Below are positions 25,787-64,000 of a DNA stretch of 64,000 nt, one piece after another (position 1 is the stretch's first letter; each line of letters begins with the position of its first letter). This DNA comes from an uncultured SAR86 cluster bacterium. GTDB taxonomy: Bacteria > Pseudomonadota > Gammaproteobacteria > Magnimaribacterales > D2472. The notes under the pieces were generated by a model. The model was not told where the DNA came from and searched no databases. It saw only the letters and a list, made by a program, of their open reading frames with translations. Location: assembly GCA_902558395.1 (NCBI GenBank), contig CACEDS010000001.1, positions 72,180 through 136,179 on the forward strand, written 5' to 3'. The position numbers and the translations under genes were made by a program.

Positions 25787-26533
25787 TTATGCACTAGATT
25801 CTTTGACTGCAACATTCCAAATGATTAAACCAAATAGAATCTTGTTAACAAAGTCAGCAAGGTTATAAATTAAGTTTAGATTCATAGCTGATGATCCATC
25901 ACCTACTAGGTAGCCTGAAGCATATCCAAGTGGGTAAATTGCCCAACCAACTATAATAATCCACATCATTGTGTTGTATGCAGATTGAACCGCAGGACTT
26001 GCTGTATTGCATGCAGACTTACCTTCACCAGCCCATAGCTCATAGATCATGTAAATCCAAGCTAACATTCCAACAATGAAAGCAGGCATAGCTGCCATTA
26101 TTCCAGCTTCTCCCATATATCCGAATACAAGCATTACAAGAGAACCAATTAATAGTTTCTTAAATAAAGAACCTGCAACATTGGTTGCAGCAGCAAGTAT
26201 TAAGTAGAATTCACATATTAATAAAGGCACTGTTAGTAACCAGTCAATATATCTGAATACAGTTGGTGTTTCTCCAGTCTCTACCCAGACTCCTCTCATG
26301 TACAAGTAATGCCAAAAAGCAATACCAGTAACAAGACCGGATACTGTTAATGAAGTCTTCCATTTAGCTGAAACTCTATCTCTTTCAATAAAAAAGAATA
26401 CAGTAGAAGCTAACAGCGCAGCAGTAACCAACCAAAAAGATACACCAGTGTAATCACTAGCATCTAGGTCGCCACCACTAGCAGCAAAAGAAGGAAGCGC
26501 AATAACACTACCCAAGATTAATAAATATTTCAT
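25787..26533 (-). CDS. proteorhodopsin, green-absorbing light-driven proton pump
   Basis: 248 aa, 7 TM, with H75, D97 (RYIDWLL), L105, E108 (ICEF), D227 and K231 (DFVNKILFG). Colinear with, and about 90 percent identical to, the SAR86 EBAC31A08 proteorhodopsin as I recall it. Confidence 0.97.
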   Translation of the reverse strand: MKYLLILGSVIALPSFAASGGDLDASDYTGVSFWLVTAALLASTVFFFIERDRVSAKWKTSLTVSGLVTGIAFWHYLYMRGVWVETGETPTVFRYIDWLLTVPLLICEFYLILAAATNVAGSLFKKLLIGSLVMLVFGYMGEAGIMAAMPAFIVGMLAWIYMIYELWAGEGKSACNTASPAVQSAYNTMMWIIIVGWAIYPLGYASGYLVGDGSSAMNLNLIYNLADFVNKILFGLIIWNVAVKESSA

Positions 26534-28010: not shown

Positions 28011-29351
28011 TTAATTTAGAAGATTATTAATTGAAACTAAATCTCCAGGAGTAATAGTTCCTGCAGATAAATCTAATCTAAGATTAGCAAGAATATAATC
28101 ATATTTAGCATTAGCAAGATTTTTTTCAGCGCTATAAAGGTTTTTTTCTGCTTGTAAAAGATCTACAACATTTCTTGTTCCGACCTTGTAACCGACTTGT
28201 GTAGCTTCAAGTGCACTAGTTGCTGAGATTACAGCTTGTTTTTGAGCAGTTACATTGGCAACTAGGGTAACAACGTTAGAGTATCCAGATCGAACATCTT
28301 GTATGATTTTTCTTTGAGTAAATAAAGTGTTCTCATTAGTTCTCTCATATTGTGCGTAAGCTTGTTTTCTTCTTGAGCTGACAGCTCCACTTTGAAAAAT
28401 TGGCATACTAAACTGGATAGCAAAATTTCTTCTGCCTGTTACTTCAGGAACGGGAACACCCTGACCGTTAAAGTTTAGGCCTTCATAGTTAAATTGGTTT
28501 GTTTCAGACTCAGATTTAGATCCAACAATATCTATTTTAGGTAAATGATTAGAAGCAGCATTTCTAGCATTACTTTTGGCTGCATCTTTTTTTAAATATG
28601 CAGCTTTAAGTTGATAATTATTTTCTAATGCTATATCTACCCATTCTTCTTTTGAGCTTGGTGCAGGACTTTCAATTAATAAACCTTCACCCAATTCGTC
28701 AAGACTAAATATTTCTCTACCTATCAATGCGTTTAATGCTTCTCTTGCAGAAAATAAACTTCCTTCCGCATTAATTCTGGATGCCTTACTTAAGTCATAT
28801 GCTAGTTGAGCTTCTTGCACACCAGTTATTGCAGAAAGACCAACCTCATACCTTTGTTGGGCTTGATCAAGCTGTTTTTTTATTGCCTTTTCTTCTGACA
28901 TGGCTGCATTTAGATTATCTATAGCTCTTAATACCCCAAAATAAAGTTCTGCAGTTCGAACTAAAAGATTTTGTTGTTCATATGCAAACTCAGCTTCAGC
29001 AGCATTTGTTAATGATTTAGATTGTTTAAACTGAAACCAAGAATCCAACCTGAACAAAGGCTGTGTTAATCTTGCTGAGCTCGAGAATGAGTTATATTCC
29101 TGTTGAAGCTGTTTATCTTGATAATACTCATTCCAATTAGTTGAACCACTCAAAGTTAGGCTTGGTAAGAGAGAAGCTCTACCTTGAACAACTAATTCTT
29201 TGTCTGCAAGGTATGAATATTCTGCGGCTTTAAAGGTTGGATCATTTTTTAAAGCCTCATTATAAATATCTAATAAGTTTTCTGCTAAAAGGCTAGAAGT
29301 TGAAAAAATTAATATGAATAATGATTTTGAAATTTTGTTCATTTTGTTCAT
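28011..29351 (-). CDS. tolC: TolC-family outer-membrane efflux channel
   Basis: 446 aa with a signal peptide and two tandem OEP repeats (LLDIYNEALKNDPTFKAA..., ...ALENNYQLKAA...). An alternative start exists at 29342. Confidence 0.9.
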   Translation of the reverse strand: MNKMNKISKSLFILIFSTSSLLAENLLDIYNEALKNDPTFKAAEYSYLADKELVVQGRASLLPSLTLSGSTNWNEYYQDKQLQQEYNSFSSSARLTQPLFRLDSWFQFKQSKSLTNAAEAEFAYEQQNLLVRTAELYFGVLRAIDNLNAAMSEEKAIKKQLDQAQQRYEVGLSAITGVQEAQLAYDLSKASRINAEGSLFSAREALNALIGREIFSLDELGEGLLIESPAPSSKEEWVDIALENNYQLKAAYLKKDAAKSNARNAASNHLPKIDIVGSKSESETNQFNYEGLNFNGQGVPVPEVTGRRNFAIQFSMPIFQSGAVSSRRKQAYAQYERTNENTLFTQRKIIQDVRSGYSNVVTLVANVTAQKQAVISATSALEATQVGYKVGTRNVVDLLQAEKNLYSAEKNLANAKYDYILANLRLDLSAGTITPGDLVSINNLLN

Positions 29352-29373
29352 TTTGTTATTTTAACTCAATATT

Positions 29374-29394
29374 AATGTTTACAGTGTAAACATT
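29374..29394. promoter_or_regulatory. perfect 10+1+10 palindrome, candidate TetR-type operator upstream of tolC
   Basis: AATGTTTACA-g-TGTAAACATT, 23 nt upstream of the tolC ATG. Its reverse complement matches the operator copy at 63022-63042 at 18 of 21 positions. Confidence 0.6.
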
Positions 29395-29484
29395 TGCAAA
29401 TTTTTTATATTTTATAATTTTTTTAATATTTCTTAGAGTAGAATATCTTTCATAAGTTCAATCATTAATAAGGCATCTTACAAA

Positions 29485-31380
29485 TTGGCAAAAAATTCAT
29501 ATGATGCAGAAGCAATCGAGGTTTTATCAGGTTTAGATCCTGTAAAAAAAAGACCTGGGATGTATACAGACACATCCAACCCCAACCATTTAATTCAAGA
29601 AGTTTTAGATAATTCAGTTGATGAAGCCTTATCTGGCCATTGTTCAAATATAAAAATATCACTCTTAAAGGATGGCAAAATCAAAGTCTCAGATAATGGA
29701 AGAGGAATGCCAGTCGATATCCACCCCGAGCACAAAGTTACTGGTGTTGAGTTAATTTTGTGCAAGCTTCATGCTGGAGCAAAATTTTCAGGTGACGATT
29801 ATAATTTTTCTGGCGGACTTCATGGGGTTGGAGTTTCTGTTGTAAATGCTCTATCCGAAGTTTTAGAGGTCAAAGTAAAAAGAGACTCCCAAGAATTTCA
29901 AATAGATTTTAGTAACGGCGATAAGGTCAGTGAGCTCAAGAAAATTGGAGATGTTGGCTTAAGAAACACCGGAACTGCAATAACCTTTAAGCCTAATCCG
30001 GTATATTTCGAAGATATTAATGTACAAGTTAAAACCTTAAAACACTTACTTAAGGCAAAAGCAGTGCTTTGCCCAGGTTTAACCATTGAATTTATTAATG
30101 AAAAAAAACCCAATGATAAAGAGAAATGGCACTTTGAAGATGGCTTAAAAAGTTACCTTAATGAATCATCAGAGGGTTCAGAGCTTATATTAGAAGATTC
30201 AATAATATGTGCAAAAGAAGGCAGTGCTCAGGAACTAGAGTTTGCTATAAATTGGTCTCCAAAACCGCCTAAAAATAAACTTGATGAGTCCTATGTAAAT
30301 TTAATTCCTACCGCTCAAGGCGGTTCTCACCTCAATGGTTTTAAATCAGGCCTCTTAGAGTCTATAAAAGAATTTTGTGAATATAGAAATTTGTTACCTA
30401 AAGGCTTAAAAATAAATGCAGATGACATAATAAATAATGCTATTTTTATAGTTTCATCAAAGTTACAAAATCCTCAGTTTGCAGGGCAAACCAAAGAAAG
30501 ACTAGACTCTAAAGATCACATGTCATTTGTCTCAAGTACCACTAAAGATGTATTGAGTATTTGGCTTAACACGCACACTGAAGAAGGAGAAAAAATTGCT
30601 GAGCTTGCAATTATCTCTGCGCAGACGCGGGCAAAAGTTTCCAATATTGTAGAGCGAAAGAAAACTTTTAAAGGACCAGCATTGCCAGGAAAACTTTCTG
30701 ATTGTAATAGTCAGGATTTAAATGAAACTGAGTTATTCCTTGTTGAGGGAGATTCTGCTGGTGGCTCAGCTAAGCAGGCTAGAGAGAGATCATTTCAAGC
30801 AATAATGCCGCTACGCGGAAAAATATTAAATACATGGGACTTAGAAAGTGCTGAAATTATAAAATCTCAAGAGATAAAAAATCTTTCCACTGCTATTGGT
30901 GTATTGCCTGGTAATAGTGATTTATCATCTTTAAGATATGGAAAAATTTGTATTTTAGCTGATGCAGACTCTGATGGATTACATATAGCAACATTATTAT
31001 GTGCTCTTTTCTTAAGACACTACAAACCTTTGGTGCAAGAGGGACGTATATATATTTCAATGCCACCTCTATATAGAATCGATTGTGGTAAAGAAGTGTT
31101 ATATGCCTTAGATGACTCTCAAAGGGATGAGATTGTTAAAAATTTTAAAAGTAAAAAAGGTAAACCAAAGATAAATATTCAGAGATTTAAAGGTTTGGGA
31201 GAGATGAATCCTTCTCAGTTAAGAGAAACTGTCATGGATCCATCAACAAGACAGCTTGTAAAACTTTCTATTAGCTCAAGCGATAATGCTAACTCAATGA
31301 TGGACCTTCTTTTATCAAAGAAAAATGCAGCTGCAAGAAAAGAATGGCTTGAGAAAAAAGGTTCATTAGCAAAAATATAA
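29485..31380 (+). CDS. parE: DNA topoisomerase IV subunit B
   Basis: 631 aa, TTG start. (M)[48 protein letters not shown] parallels E. coli ParE. The length lacks the GyrB insertion. Confidence 0.93.
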
Positions 31381-61503: not shown

Positions 61504-61968
61504 ATGTCTCTTCAAGATAATTTTAGAAAAGCAATGAGAAGTTATGTTTACTCAGTAAGCATCTTGTCCAATGTAAGTGAAAATAAAGAATATAATGCAA
61601 TTACTGTTTCTTCGGTTACATCGGTGTCAATAGATCCTCCAAGCATATTGGTTTGCATAAATAAAACTGCTGGTATTCATGATTCAATAAAACTCGGAAC
61701 TAAATACTGCATCAATCTTCTTACCAAAACTCATGAAGAACTTTCTAATATTTGCAGTAATTATGAAGAAGAAAAAAATAGATTTATAACTGATCAGTGG
61801 GATCTTTCAGACATTCCATTTTTAAAGGATGCCCAAGCAAATATCTTCTGTAAAGTTGACCAATTGATTGAATATCATACTCACACAATTGTTATTGGAA
61901 AAGTAATTGAATCTAAAAATTTAGATGCAATTAATACTCTCACTTATGTTGATGGTTCTTATGAATAA
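61504..61968 (+). CDS. flavin reductase-like (HpaC/NADH:FMN oxidoreductase domain) protein
   Basis: 154 aa. The AITVSSVTSVSIDPPSILVCINK pattern is typical of the flavin reductase-like domain. Confidence 0.7.
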   Translation: MSLQDNFRKAMRSYVYSVSILSNVSENKEYNAITVSSVTSVSIDPPSILVCINKTAGIHDSIKLGTKYCINLLTKTHEELSNICSNYEEEKNRFITDQWDLSDIPFLKDAQANIFCKVDQLIEYHTHTIVIGKVIESKNLDAINTLTYVDGSYE

Positions 61969-62383
61969 GATTTTTATTACAAGTTTTTTATTTTTTATAT
62001 CCTTCATGCAGGCAGAAGAATGTGTTCCTGAGCCTAATGCAAGTGTCTATTTTATAAGTCCACAAGATAACTATGTATCGAAAAGCTCTGAAGTAAAGAT
62101 AGTTTTTGGAATTAAGAATTTTGATATATTGCCAGCAGGTACTATTGGTTGCAATTCTGGACATCATCATCTTGTAATTAATGCTGAATTACCAAACTTA
62201 TCAAGGCCCATACCAAGTACAGAAAATTATATTCATTTTGGAAAGGGTCAGACAGAAACAACTATTAATTTAAAACCTGGCAAACATACTCTTCAACTTT
62301 TAGTTGGAGACTATGCACACATCCCTCATAAAAATCCTATTTTTTCAGAAAAGATAAATATTGAAGTAATTAGTTCTGAATAA
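61961..62383 (+). CDS. DUF4399-like secreted protein
   Basis: Start placed at 61961 (MNKIFITSFLFFISFMQA signal peptide). Has a GHHHL motif (CNSGHHHLVIN). The family call is from memory. Confidence 0.5.
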   Translation: MNKIFITSFLFFISFMQAEECVPEPNASVYFISPQDNYVSKSSEVKIVFGIKNFDILPAGTIGCNSGHHHLVINAELPNLSRPIPSTENYIHFGKGQTETTINLKPGKHTLQLLVGDYAHIPHKNPIFSEKINIEVISSE

Positions 62384-62984
62384 GACCGGTTAATACTTTA
62401 TCCAAATGATCTTCTAAATTAGTCGCTATAACACTAGCAGTTGAGATAGGACCAAAGCCTTCTTCAAAGTCATCTCCAACTACTTGAACCTTTCTTAATA
62501 TACCAACTAACCCGTGAACCATTGACCATAAAGTAATACATTTAAAAGCTATAACCTCATCACTGTCACTGGCTAATTTAGAAAAACTTAATCTCATATT
62601 TTCATACGTCGAGTTTGCTGATTCCAGTAATTCAGGATATTCAGCAAAGTTACCAACGGCAGTGCCAAACATAAGATCATAGGTATTAGCATTTTTAAGA
62701 CCAAACTCAATATAGTTACATCCTATTTTTACAAGATCCTTTTTAGTAATTTTTTTATCAGCATCAATATGGCAAGCTTTTGAAAGTTTCTTAAAACCTT
62801 CCGTTGCAACTGATGCATATAATGTTTCTTTTGTTTCAAAGTGACGATAGGGTGCAGTTTGTGATACTCCGCTTTCCTTAGCAAGTGATCGAATACTTAA
62901 TTTTGTGTATCCATCCCGTTCACATAACTTACAAGCGCAATCTATTAGTTCTTGTTTAAGGTTTCCGTGATGATATGATTTCAT
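62370..62984 (-). CDS. TetR/AcrR-family transcriptional repressor
   Basis: 204 aa with an N-terminal HTH (LSIRSLAKESGVSQTAPYRHFETKETL). Divergent from an efflux adaptor gene. Confidence 0.9.
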   Translation of the reverse strand: MKSYHHGNLKQELIDCACKLCERDGYTKLSIRSLAKESGVSQTAPYRHFETKETLYASVATEGFKKLSKACHIDADKKITKKDLVKIGCNYIEFGLKNANTYDLMFGTAVGNFAEYPELLESANSTYENMRLSFSKLASDSDEVIAFKCITLWSMVHGLVGILRKVQVVGDDFEEGFGPISTASVIATNLEDHLDKVLTGLIQN

Positions 62985-62992
62985 TTTATTTA

Positions 62993-63042
62993 AATGTTGA
63001 CACTGCTAACATTTTAGCTATCATGTTTACACTGCTAACATT
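62993..63042. promoter_or_regulatory. two tandem 21-bp operator copies overlapping divergent sigma70-like promoters
   Basis: AATGTTGACACTGCTAACATT (62993-63013) and CATGTTTACACTGCTAACATT (63022-63042). Plus-strand promoter TTGACA (62997-63002), 16 nt, TATCAT (63019-63024). Minus-strand promoter TTGACT (63066-63061), 17 nt, TAATGT (63043-63038). Confidence 0.65.
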
Positions 63043-63066
63043 AAATTTTTTAGTTAATAAAGTCAA

Positions 63067-64000
63067 ATGATTAAATATATTGTTAATAAACTTAATTTAT
63101 TTTTGATATCAATAATTTTTAGTTCAGAATTGCTCTCGCTTGAAATACTTGAAGTTAAGATGATGGACTCTTATAAAATTACAAGAGAGTTTCCTGGAAA
63201 ATTATTACCTGCACAGCAATCTAATCTAGCTTTTGAAATACCAGGAAAAATTAACGTTGTAAACGTTGATATCGGAGATGCTGTAAAAAAAGGACAAATA
63301 CTCGCAGAGTTAGATAACCGTGAAGCAACCGCTCAACTAAAACAAGCCAAAGCTAAATATGATCTTGCTTTACAAATATTAAATAGATACAAAGATCTCA
63401 GATCAGAAGGACATATATCAATCCAAGACCTTGATAATGCAAATTCTGAAGAGCTCATAGCTAAATCACAGTACGAGTTTTATAAAGTAAAACTTGAACA
63501 AACTAAACTAATAGCCCCTTTTGATGGCGTAATTCAAAACAGATATCTTGATACGGGCTCTGTTATAAACGGTGGAATTCCAATTGTAGAAATTTTAGGA
63601 TCTAAGAATGTGGAGGCACACATATCTATACCTTTAAAATTTATTGATAAATTAAATATTGGCAATTCTTATGATTTCAAAATTGGAAATAAAAGACCTA
63701 AAGGTGTGCTTGCAAGACTTGCTCCGATGACACCTGGAGGTTCAGATAACAGATTGGCAATTTTTAATTTTGATACATTTTTTGATCCTGGCTCCATAGC
63801 AGAATTAAACTTAAGCCTAAATATAGAAGGAAGAGGCACATGGGTTCCCATTAAATCTCTATCTCAATCCGAACAGGGCATTTGGGCAATCTATACAGTT
63901 AATGATAAAAAAGTTGTTGTAAGAGATCTTGTAGAAATTTTATATTTTGAAGGTGAGTATGCTTTCGTTAATGGAACATTAAACGATGGTGATCTTGTGG
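63067..64000 (+). CDS. RND-type efflux membrane-fusion (periplasmic adaptor, HlyD family) protein, 3' end cut by window edge
   Basis: Absent from the ORF track (no stop). My translation from ATG 63067: MIKYIVNKLNLFLISIIFSS...FPGKLLPAQQSNLAFEIPGKINVVNVDIGDAVKKGQILAELD..., a coiled-coil segment, then LIAPFDGVIQNRYLDTGSVI. This is the lipoyl / hairpin / beta-barrel order typical of MFPs. Confidence 0.85.
   Translation, partial: MIKYIVNKLNLFLISIIFSSELLSLEILEVKMMDSYKITREFPGKLLPAQQSNLAFEIPGKINVVNVDIGDAVKKGQILAELDNREATAQLKQAKAKYDLALQILNRYKDLRSEGHISIQDLDNANSEELIAKSQYEFYKVKLEQTKLIAPFDGVIQNRYLDTGSVINGGIPIVEILGSKNVEAHISIPLKFIDKLNIGNSYDFKIGNKRPKGVLARLAPMTPGGSDNRLAIFNFDTFFDPGSIAELNLSLNIEGRGTWVPIKSLSQSEQGIWAIYTVNDKKVVVRDLVEILYFEGEYAFVNGTLNDGDLV

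What the first reader, a model, noticed from the sequence alone, without database searches (positions are those of the whole stretch)
29374..29394. Perfect 21-bp palindrome upstream of tolC matches the operators beside the TetR gene 33 kb away, implying a dispersed efflux regulon
AATGTTTACA-g-TGTAAACATT has 10-bp perfect arms and lies 23 nt upstream of the tolC start, in the tolC/parE divergent spacer. Its reverse complement, AATGTTTACACTGTAAACATT, matches CATGTTTACACTGCTAACATT (63022-63042) at 18 of 21 positions. It matches AATGTTGACACTGCTAACATT (62993-63013) at 18 of 21 as well. Those two copies lie between a TetR-family repressor gene and an RND membrane-fusion gene. The consensus is ATGTT(T/G)ACACTG(T/C)(A/T)AACAT. 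A rough estimate from AT-rich base frequencies gives well under a 5 percent chance of such a match anywhere in 64 kb. Here it falls exactly in the promoter of the functionally matching outer-membrane channel. This suggests one repressor co-ordinates the pump operon and the unlinked tolC.
Basis: partly seen in the sequence, partly recalled or inferred. Interest (0 to 1): 0.65.

Follow-up and report, generated by a model that had tools for sequence, protein, structure and literature searches.

The report
TetR operator upstream of SAR86 tolC
The perfect palindrome in front of the tolC outer-membrane channel gene of this marine SAR86 bacterium is very probably a binding site for the TetR repressor encoded 33 kb away beside an RND pump operon, so one repressor probably controls both; this is an ordinary mechanism wired in a less common way.

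Summary
The palindrome ATGTTTACA-g-TGTAAACAT (core 29375-29393) lies 23 nt before the tolC ATG. It matches two tandem sites (62994-63012, 63023-63041) between a TetR gene and an RND adaptor gene. Shuffles predict 0.03 such matches in the window; 4 were found, at 3 sites.

Three lines of comparison indicate a functional TetR operator:
- The site is present in 84 tolC loci of related marine bacteria (TolC 79-98% identical). Its distance to the tolC start is fixed, while its distance to parE varies.
- In a truncated scan of about 185,000 species genomes, 62 of 117 motif-bearing loci have a homologue of this TetR starting within 300 bp. These come from many phyla and share the recognition helix VSxxAPYRHF.
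- In four SAR86 genomes (counting the window's) both the tetR/pump spacer and tolC carry the motif.

In the closest genome the pump operon has no outer-membrane gene, so co-control with tolC makes functional sense. Related SAR86 genomes carry the same operator at two further loci: a di-iron oxygenase cluster and a rhodanese/lipase/TonB-receptor cluster. The regulon is therefore broader than efflux.

No binding experiment exists and the tolC transcription start is unresolved. I rate this a new member of a known kind, of moderate interest.

The parts
29375..29393 (.). tolC operator: perfect palindrome ATGTTTACA-g-TGTAAACAT (21-mer is 29374-29394), the predicted binding site for one TetR dimer
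   Evidence: Conserved in 84 related tolC loci.
29355..29366 (-). Conserved block RGTTARAAT (here GAGTTAAAAT; the -10-like hexamer TAAAAT is 29363-29358 on the minus strand). It lies 11 nt after the operator and 6 nt before the tolC ATG. It is a candidate extended -10 element for a leaderless tolC mRNA.
   Evidence: Present in 84 of 84 loci. The spacer to the ATG is 5-7 nt, and 6 nt in 68 loci. An RNA contig in run X6 ends at 29348. The promoter role is inferred.
28011..29351 (-). tolC, the outer-membrane efflux channel and predicted regulated gene
29433..29445 (+). Conserved block CTTAGAGTAGAAT on the parE side of the spacer, probably the parE -10 region (TAGAAT). It is not part of the operator.
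   Evidence: alignment. Its distance to the operator varies from 29 to 84 nt.
62370..62984 (-). TetR-family repressor gene (204 aa; TetR_N plus TetR_C_33; recognition helix VSQTAPYRHF)
   Evidence: It is the only gene of this subfamily in the window.
62994..63012 (.). Operator O1 (ATGTTGACACTGCTAACAT). It contains the TTGACA -35 hexamer of the predicted pump promoter and lies 9 nt from the tetR ATG.
63023..63041 (.). Operator O2 (ATGTTTACACTGCTAACAT), 29 bp centre-to-centre from O1. It overlaps the end of the predicted -10 hexamer and the predicted transcription start of the pump promoter.
   Evidence: The 29-bp tandem arrangement recurs in SAR86 relatives.
62997..63024 (+). Predicted sigma-70 promoter of the pump operon, TTGACA-16-TATCAT (11 of 12 consensus positions)
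   Evidence: RNA contigs of the adaptor gene begin at 63044-63052, so the mRNA has a leader.
63067..64000 (+). RND membrane-fusion (adaptor) gene, cut by the window end. In the closest genome it is followed by an RND permease and no outer-membrane gene.

Best explanation
The palindrome at 29375-29393 is a DNA operator for the TetR-family repressor encoded at 62370-62984. A TetR dimer bound there blocks transcription of tolC. Dimers bound at the two tandem operators O1 and O2 block the divergent tetR and adaptor/RND-pump promoters. When an unknown ligand, presumably a hydrophobic pump substrate, binds the repressor's C-terminal domain, the repressor leaves all three sites. The inner-membrane pump, its adaptor and the outer-membrane channel are then made together.

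Shown here: the sites, their rarity, their conservation, their association with this TetR subfamily, and the gene content.

Inferred: physical binding, the direction of control (repression), the ligand, and the exact promoter geometry at tolC. For the geometry there are two possibilities. Either the operator covers -42 to -24 of a leaderless extended -10 promoter, or it sits at about +1 to +19 of a promoter lying upstream. Both predict repression.
For: 1. Rarity: 0.03 matches expected in 64 kb, against 4 matches at 3 sites found.

2. Conservation at tolC: the site is present in 78 of 80 metagenomic tolC loci (TolC 79-98% identical) and in 6 genome loci. One exception is truncated and the other (L080) has a degraded copy. 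The site and the RGTTARAAT-N5-7-ATG block stand out against a variable AT-rich spacer. The operator lies 9-14 nt from that block but 29-84 nt from the parE-side block.

3. Link to the protein: in an exact-pattern scan of genome contigs, 62 of 117 loci have a homologue of this TetR starting within 300 bp of the motif. About 39 of these are outside SAR86, in Actinobacteria, Firmicutes, Cyanobacteria, Spirochaetes, Alphaproteobacteria and others. These proteins are only 20-30% identical overall but share the recognition helix VS[QHA][TA]APYRHF.

4. Same-genome co-occurrence: the window, SAG AG-447-B02 (L138 plus L158), CAZTGS (L177 plus L153) and CAJXAZ (L088 plus L110) each carry the motif at tolC and at tetR/adaptor.

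5. No other TetR of this subfamily lies in the window or near any tolC locus.

6. Functional logic: in the closest genome the operon is adaptor plus RND permease, followed by bamD and rluD, with no outer-membrane factor.

7. Promoter overlap at the pump locus: TTGACA-16-TATCAT is embedded in O1 and O2.

8. Evidence against an RNA role:
- 31 of 84 sites have a non-pairing A.C at arm positions 7 and 13.
- The predicted fold is weak, -7.1 kcal/mol with z-score -0.86.
- There is no Rfam match.
- Metatranscriptome run X6 has tolC RNA ending at 29348 and none over the palindrome.
Against: - There is no experimental binding or expression evidence.
- The rest of the genome is not visible, so a paralogous TetR with the same specificity cannot be excluded.
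- The tolC transcription start is unresolved. Consensus scanning found no sigma-70 promoter on the tolC strand. RNA contigs in runs X1 and X8 span the whole spacer, which may reflect DNA carry-over or read-through.
- TolC usually serves several exporters, so tight control by one pump's repressor would be costly.
- No change of specificity occurs among the relatives, so there is no operator-protein co-variation to test.
Confidence: 0.8

Rival explanations
1. The tolC palindrome is a real operator, but it is bound by a different TetR paralogue of the same subfamily encoded outside the window, not by the repressor beside the pump operon.
For: Only 64 kb of the genome is visible. The operator is shared by the whole subfamily across phyla, so any paralogue would recognise it.
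Against: No second gene of this subfamily was found in the window or in any of the tolC, oxygenase-cluster or rhodanese-cluster loci. In every SAR86 locus that has such a gene, it is the one next to the adaptor/RND operon. SAR86 genomes are small and have few regulators (own knowledge).
Confidence: 0.08
2. The palindrome controls the divergent parE-parC (topoisomerase IV) operon, instead of or as well as tolC.
For: The site lies in the shared tolC/parE spacer, 91 nt before the parE start.
Against: The distance from the operator to the conserved parE-side block varies from 29 to 84 nt among relatives. The distance to the tolC-side block and the ATG is nearly fixed. The operator ends about 45 nt upstream of the likely parE -10 (TAGAAT, 29440-29445), outside a core promoter. 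Other operators of this regulon sit next to the start of the gene they precede.
Confidence: 0.05
3. The palindrome acts as an RNA hairpin in the tolC 5' leader, affecting translation or stability, rather than as a protein-binding DNA site.
For: Some relatives change both arms together, from A..T to G..C at arm positions 7 and 13. RNA contigs in X1 and X8 cover the spacer.
Against: - 31 of 84 sites carry a non-pairing A.C at that position.
- The tetR-side copies are imperfect palindromes.
- The fold is weak and no better than shuffles.
- There is no Rfam family and no terminator-like T run.
- The same sequence sits next to TetR genes in many phyla, in spacers transcribed in either direction.
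Confidence: 0.03
4. The match is a coincidence or a non-functional relic.
For: AT-rich genomes contain many short palindromes.
Against: 0.03 matches are expected by chance, and the site is conserved in 84 loci against a variable background.
Confidence: 0.01

Closest known systems
AcrR / acrAB with tolC in Escherichia coli
   Same: A TetR-family repressor is encoded divergently from an adaptor-plus-RND operon that lacks an outer-membrane gene. It binds a palindrome in the spacer and autoregulates. The pump depends on a distant tolC. AcrR also has distal targets: marRAB, soxRS, mdtJI and puuA (PMC9769551).
   Different: In E. coli tolC is not reported as a direct AcrR target. It is co-induced through the AraC/XylS activators MarA, SoxS and Rob at a marbox (PMC9769551; PMC11200565). 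Here the pump's own repressor appears to have an operator directly at tolC. The operator sequence and the C-terminal domain (TetR_C_33) also differ, and AcrR scores only E = 7e-5 against this protein.
Tn10 TetR with tandem operators O1/O2
   Same: Two palindromic operators of about 19 bp lie about 30 bp apart centre-to-centre, in the spacer between divergent regulator and transporter genes. They overlap both promoters, and each binds one dimer (own knowledge).
   Different: TetR controls only its local pair of genes and has no distal operator. The sequence (TCTATCATTGATAGA core), the ligand and the transporter class (MFS) are different.
MtrR of Neisseria gonorrhoeae and CmeR of Campylobacter jejuni (local efflux repressors with wider regulons)
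   Same: These are TetR-family repressors encoded beside an RND operon that also bind distant promoters (own knowledge).
   Different: In those systems the outer-membrane component (MtrE, CmeC) is encoded in the pump operon. The distal targets are not the pump's channel gene.
PDB 3on2 (Rhodococcus jostii RHA1 'probable transcriptional regulator') and the Pfam TetR_C_33 group
   Same: It is the closest solved relative (E = 1e-13 over residues 3-111) and has a similar N-terminus, YHHGSLR...LSLRQLAREAGVSHAAP.
   Different: It is a structural-genomics entry with no function or operator in the entry's molecule name. Its helix reads APSKHF rather than APYRHF.

Membership tests
TetR-family transcriptional regulators | N-terminal helix-turn-helix domain of the TetR_N type | tested here: met
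   PF00440 at 37.5 bits against a cutoff of 24, covering residues 13-58.
TetR-family transcriptional regulators | All-helical C-terminal ligand-binding and dimerisation domain | tested here: met
   PF13305 TetR_C_33 at 28.2 bits against a cutoff of 26.8, covering residues 85-164. The conserved W-x-x-V-H-G motif is seen in the alignment. No structure was predicted.
TetR-family transcriptional regulators | Palindromic operator(s) in the spacer between the regulator gene and a divergently transcribed target, overlapping the promoters | tested here: met
   O1 and O2 lie in the 82-bp tetR/adaptor spacer, and TTGACA-16-TATCAT is embedded in them. The same arrangement occurs in SAR86 relatives and next to homologues in other phyla.
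TetR-family transcriptional regulators | Protein binds the operator as a dimer and is released by a small-molecule ligand | not testable with these tools
   This needs EMSA or footprinting and ligand assays.
TolC-family outer-membrane factor | Two OEP repeats, and a full-length match to the TolC subfamily model | tested here: met
   PF02321 matches in two stretches. TIGR01844 scores 319.9 bits against a cutoff of 225. The E. coli TolC equivalog model is below its cutoff (340 against 495), so this is a TolC-family member rather than a strict orthologue.
Tripartite RND efflux system | Adjacent adaptor (MFP) and RND permease genes, with an outer-membrane factor in the operon or elsewhere | tested here: met
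   The adaptor matches TIGR01730 at 153.9 bits. The permease lies beyond the window end but is present in the closest genome (L107 2729-5791, ACR_tran E = 1.4e-106), with no outer-membrane gene following.
Intrinsic terminator or structured RNA element | G+C-rich stem followed by a T run, or a match to a curated RNA family, or a fold more stable than shuffles | tested here: not met
   There are 0 terminator-like sites and no meaningful Rfam match. The fold is -7.1 kcal/mol with z-score -0.86. 31 of 84 homologous sites break a stem pair.

The most novel reading that the evidence does not exclude
The 19-bp sequence ATGTT(T/G)(A/G)CA-N-TG(Y)(W)AACAT is the near-invariant operator of a TetR subfamily found across many bacterial phyla (TetR_C_33 type, recognition helix VSxxAPYRHF), for which I found no characterised member.

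In SAR86, an abundant uncultured marine clade with few regulators, one such repressor governs a dispersed regulon of at least four loci:
- the RND pump operon;
- the distant tolC, possibly made from a leaderless mRNA;
- an AurF-like di-iron oxygenase / beta-helix / cytochrome c cluster;
- a rhodanese / PAN-domain protein / patatin lipase / RNA-binding protein / TonB-receptor cluster.

This would tie export of hydrophobic compounds to their uptake and oxidation. It would also make regulons of this subfamily predictable from sequence in any genome.
Probability: 0.45. Interest if true: 0.5.

Novelty: new member of a known kind. Interest (0 to 1): 0.35.

Why it matters
SAR86 is among the most abundant bacterial groups in the surface ocean, and no isolate was available to the genome study I read (PMC3358033). 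Its gene regulation can therefore mostly be read only from sequence. This finding gives one of its few regulators a defined operator, and a testable regulon that links an RND pump to its outer-membrane channel.

It also shows a wiring that differs from the E. coli textbook case. There tolC is co-induced by global activators rather than by the pump's own repressor.

The operator is shared with homologous repressors in many phyla. The same 19-bp pattern could therefore be used to predict targets of an uncharacterised TetR subfamily widely, and as a ready-made repressor/operator pair for biosensor work. The mechanism itself, a TetR dimer on a palindrome, is conventional.

Tried and rejected
- **Possible fourth site, rejected.** ATGTTTACTCAGTAAGCAT at 61544-61562 has 3 mismatches and lies inside the flavin-reductase gene. 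It varies at synonymous positions in relatives and simply follows the conserved peptide Y(V/I)YSVS, so it is a chance match.
- **RNA hairpin or terminator reading, rejected**.
- **Exact-sequence look-ups failed.** The window's TolC and TetR found no record, so the source contig could not be retrieved that way. The organism was identified instead from the genome scan: ParC is 99.7% and ParE 98.7% identical to SAR86 SAG AG-447-B02, and TetR is 97% identical to AG-390-J18.
- **Full-text search for the motif was useless.** Searching TGTAAACAT returned only miR-30 and primer papers.
- **No literature precedent found.** Four further searches found no TetR-type repressor with an operator at a distant tolC. 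This is not proof that none exists.
- **Solved structures did not help.** The closest are uncharacterised structural-genomics entries.
- **No consensus promoter on the tolC strand.** The sigma-70 scan found none. The -10/leaderless proposal rests on conservation only.
- **Metatranscriptome contigs were informative but not decisive for transcription starts**, because only assembled contigs were available, not raw reads.
- **Not run.** I did not run the large protein-homology searches or a structure prediction, because they would not have changed the verdict.

Full report
**The observation**

The window carries AATGTTTACAGTGTAAACATT at 29374-29394, a perfect palindrome with 10-nt arms around one central base. 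It also carries AATGTTGACACTGCTAACATT at 62993-63013 and CATGTTTACACTGCTAACATT at 63022-63042.

Dinucleotide-preserving shuffles predict 0.03 matches, and none of 100 shuffles reached the observed four. With the variable positions set to N and three mismatches allowed, the three sites have zero mismatches. All other matches have two or three, which is the chance level (11 found, 8.2 expected).

**Surroundings**

- ORF 28011-29351 (minus strand) is a TolC-family outer-membrane factor: two OEP repeats, and TIGR01844 at 320 bits against a cutoff of 225.
- ORF 29485-31380 (plus strand) is topoisomerase IV subunit B (parE), followed by parC.
- ORF 62370-62984 (minus strand) is a 204-aa TetR-family protein (TetR_N plus TetR_C_33).
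- The ORF from 63067 to the window end is an RND membrane-fusion (adaptor) protein.
- A proteorhodopsin gene lies at 25787-26533.

The window belongs to the uncultured marine SAR86 clade. ParC is 99.7% and ParE 98.7% identical to SAG AG-447-B02, and the TetR is 97% identical to that of SAG AG-390-J18.

In AG-390-J18 the adaptor gene (328 aa) is followed by a 1020-aa AcrB-type permease, then a convergent bamD and rluD. The operon therefore has no outer-membrane gene of its own.

**Is the tolC site conserved?**

A scan of metagenome contigs with the TolC protein returned 80 loci, 79-98% identical. The palindrome lies just upstream of tolC in 78 of them. One exception (L057) is cut 26 nt before the gene. 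The other (L080, the most distant) has a degraded copy, ATGTAAACACCGCATACAT. Six more tolC loci came from the genome scan, giving 84 sites.

The variants and their counts are:

| Sequence | Count |
|---|---|
| ATGTTTGCACTGCAAACAT | 27 |
| ATGTTTACACTGTAAACAT | 24 |
| ATGTTTACACTGCAAACAT | 20 |
| Four minor forms | 11 |

In the alignment of the spacer, the operator and a following block RGTTARAAT are almost invariant, while the AT-rich sequence around them varies. The operator ends 9-14 nt before that block, and the block ends 5-7 nt (6 nt in 68 loci) before the tolC ATG. In contrast, the distance from the operator to the conserved parE-side block (CTTAGAGTAGAAT) ranges from 29 to 84 nt. The site is therefore tied to tolC, not to parE.

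**Is the motif the operator of this TetR?**

I scanned one genome per species (185,579 species) for ATGTTKRCACTGYWAACAT.

- In 62 of the 117 loci, a homologue of the window's TetR starts within 300 bp of the motif.
- About 39 of these 62 are outside SAR86: Acidiphilium, Microbacterium, Actinokineospora, Desulfosporosinus, Clostridium, spirochaetes, cyanobacteria, Gemmatimonadales, Fibrobacteria, Steroidobacter and others.
- These proteins are only 20-30% identical to the window's TetR overall. They share the recognition-helix region [LF]S[LIM]R..A...[GN]VS[QHA][TA]APYRHF.

A rare 19-bp sequence lying beside the same gene family in many phyla is strong evidence that it is the family's cognate operator.

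The window holds only one gene of this subfamily, and none lies within several kb of any tolC locus. Four SAR86 genomes carry the motif at both the tetR/adaptor spacer and tolC: the window, AG-447-B02 (L158 and L138), CAZTGS (L153 and L177) and CAJXAZ (L110 and L088). In the first three the two loci are about 30-33 kb apart.

**How it probably works**

At the pump locus, the scan found a near-consensus promoter TTGACA-16-TATCAT (11 of 12) at 62997-63024 on the adaptor strand. Its -35 hexamer lies inside O1, and its -10 end and predicted start lie inside O2. It also found a weaker promoter for tetR on the other strand within the same two sites. Bound dimers would therefore shut off both genes. 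This is the classical arrangement of tandem TetR operators about 30 bp apart.

Metatranscriptome contigs show that both genes are expressed in the sea. Adaptor contigs begin at 63044-63052, tetR contigs end at 62967-63017, and none of the listed contigs bridges the two operators in the four runs examined.

At tolC two geometries are possible.

- **Leaderless geometry.** The invariant RGTTARAAT-N6-ATG looks like a -10 element with the -14 G of an extended -10, placed so that transcription would start at the A of the ATG. There is no Shine-Dalgarno sequence at the usual distance, whereas other genes of the regulon have clear GAGG or GGAG sites. In that case the operator covers about -42 to -24 and occludes the polymerase. 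In run X6, the tolC RNA contig ends at 29348 with no RNA over 29366-29513, which fits this geometry.
- **Roadblock geometry.** A promoter in the AT-rich sequence upstream would place the operator at about +1 to +19. Contigs in X1 and X8 that span the spacer allow this, but they could also be DNA carry-over.

Both geometries predict repression. I regard the leaderless version as slightly more likely, but unproven.

**Rival readings**

- *RNA hairpin.* This is unlikely for several reasons:
  - 31 of 84 sites have a non-pairing A.C at arm positions 7 and 13.
  - The fold is weak and no better than shuffles.
  - There is no Rfam match and no terminator-like feature.
  - The A/G and T/C variation fits a degenerate half-site ATGTT[TG][AG]CA, which is also what the tetR-side operators show.
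- *Control of parE.* This is unlikely because of the variable distance described above.
- *A paralogous regulator outside the window.* This cannot be excluded, but nothing points to one.

**A wider regulon**

In related SAR86 genomes the same exact motif occurs at two further kinds of locus.

- *Oxygenase cluster.* The motif lies about 20 nt upstream of a 368-aa AurF-like di-iron oxygenase gene. This gene follows cobS/cobT-like genes and precedes a NosD-like beta-helix protein and a cytochrome c-like protein (17 loci). A TATAAT hexamer lies 5-6 nt before the operator, so the operator sits at the transcription start.
- *Rhodanese cluster.* The motif lies between a rhodanese gene and a small secreted PAN-domain protein gene. 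These are followed by a patatin-like lipase, an RRM RNA-binding protein and a TonB-dependent receptor, with a GMC oxidoreductase on the other side (12 loci). There are often two operators 37-42 bp apart, arranged like O1 and O2, with TTGACA inside the upstream one.

One MAG (CALJHI) carries the tetR/adaptor site and both of these. AG-917-O19 carries the tolC site and the oxygenase site. The regulon is therefore broader than efflux. Whether the window's own genome has these extra sites could not be checked.

**Comparison with known systems**

The mechanism is that of an ordinary TetR-family repressor. The closest analogue is AcrR/acrAB in E. coli, whose pump also depends on a distant tolC. There, however, tolC is induced through MarA, SoxS and Rob, and is not listed among AcrR's direct targets (PMC9769551; PMC11200565).

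Local efflux repressors with additional distal targets are known (AcrR in that paper; MtrR and CmeR from my own knowledge). I found no report of such a repressor with an operator at a distant channel gene, and nothing on SAR86 regulation. These searches cover only the held library.

The nearest solved structure (3on2) is uncharacterised, and no NCBIfam equivalog model reaches its cutoff.

**Verdict**

It is a new member of a known kind: a conventional repressor/operator pair whose wiring, a distal operator at tolC within a dispersed regulon, is newly described for an uncultured but abundant marine clade. Interest is moderate (0.35). Experiments are needed for binding, the ligand and the transcription start.

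Noticed in passing
L093 4208-4226, with the same arrangement in L100, L104, L108, L121, L131, L142, L145, L147, L154, L155, L160, L162, L165, L166, L185, L192: The same 19-bp operator lies about 20 nt before a 368-aa AurF-like di-iron oxygenase gene in many SAR86 genomes. The gene follows cobS/cobT-like genes and precedes a NosD-like beta-helix protein and a cytochrome c-like protein. A TATAAT hexamer lies 5-6 nt upstream of the operator.
   Followed up: partly
L113 5356-5416, with the same arrangement in L092, L094, L098, L118, L119, L125, L128, L132, L136, L151, L180: One or two copies of the operator (37-42 bp apart) lie between a rhodanese gene and a small secreted PAN-domain protein gene. 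These are followed by a patatin-like lipase, an RRM RNA-binding protein and a TonB-dependent receptor, with a GMC oxidoreductase on the other side. This suggests the regulon includes uptake or lipid-related genes.
   Followed up: partly
Window 29355-29366 (minus strand), and all 84 related tolC loci: An invariant RGTTARAAT block lies 5-7 nt before the tolC ATG, with no Shine-Dalgarno sequence at the usual distance. This suggests a leaderless tolC mRNA made from an extended -10-like promoter. An RNA contig in run X6 ends at 29348.
   Followed up: partly
Window 29433-29445 and 29455-29468: Two strongly conserved blocks lie on the parE side of the spacer: CTTAGAGTAGAAT and CATAAGTTCAATCA. They are probably the parE -10 region and leader, and they are conserved even in the most distant relatives.
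   Followed up: no
L081-L197 (non-SAR86 loci), e.g. L095 3492-4052, L120, L127, L129, L157: In Firmicutes and spirochaetes the TetR homologue with this operator is often divergent from a protein of about 190 aa with a conserved C-x-G-C-F-x-C-W motif. By eye it looks like a flavodoxin-like NAD(P)H/FMN reductase. Elsewhere the neighbours are carotenoid-oxygenase-like, MFS, ABC, acyl-CoA dehydrogenase or patatin-like genes. These neighbours were read by eye and not scanned against a library.
   Followed up: no
Window 29333-29351: The tolC start carries a 9-nt tandem duplication (ATGAACAAA twice, giving MNKMNK) that is absent from the closest metagenomic and RNA-derived relatives (reported as a 9-nt deletion at 29332 in runs X1 and X8).
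   Followed up: no
Window 61925-62383: The DUF4399 gene between the flavin reductase gene and tetR is only about 47% identical to its counterpart in the two closest genomes, although the flanking genes are 96-97% identical. The tetR gene of AG-447-B02 is also only 81% identical. This marks a locally variable spot.
   Followed up: no
Window 25787-26533: A proteorhodopsin gene (Bac_rhodopsin, E = 1e-43) lies 1.5 kb from tolC. This fits SAR86 and is unrelated to the finding.
   Followed up: no
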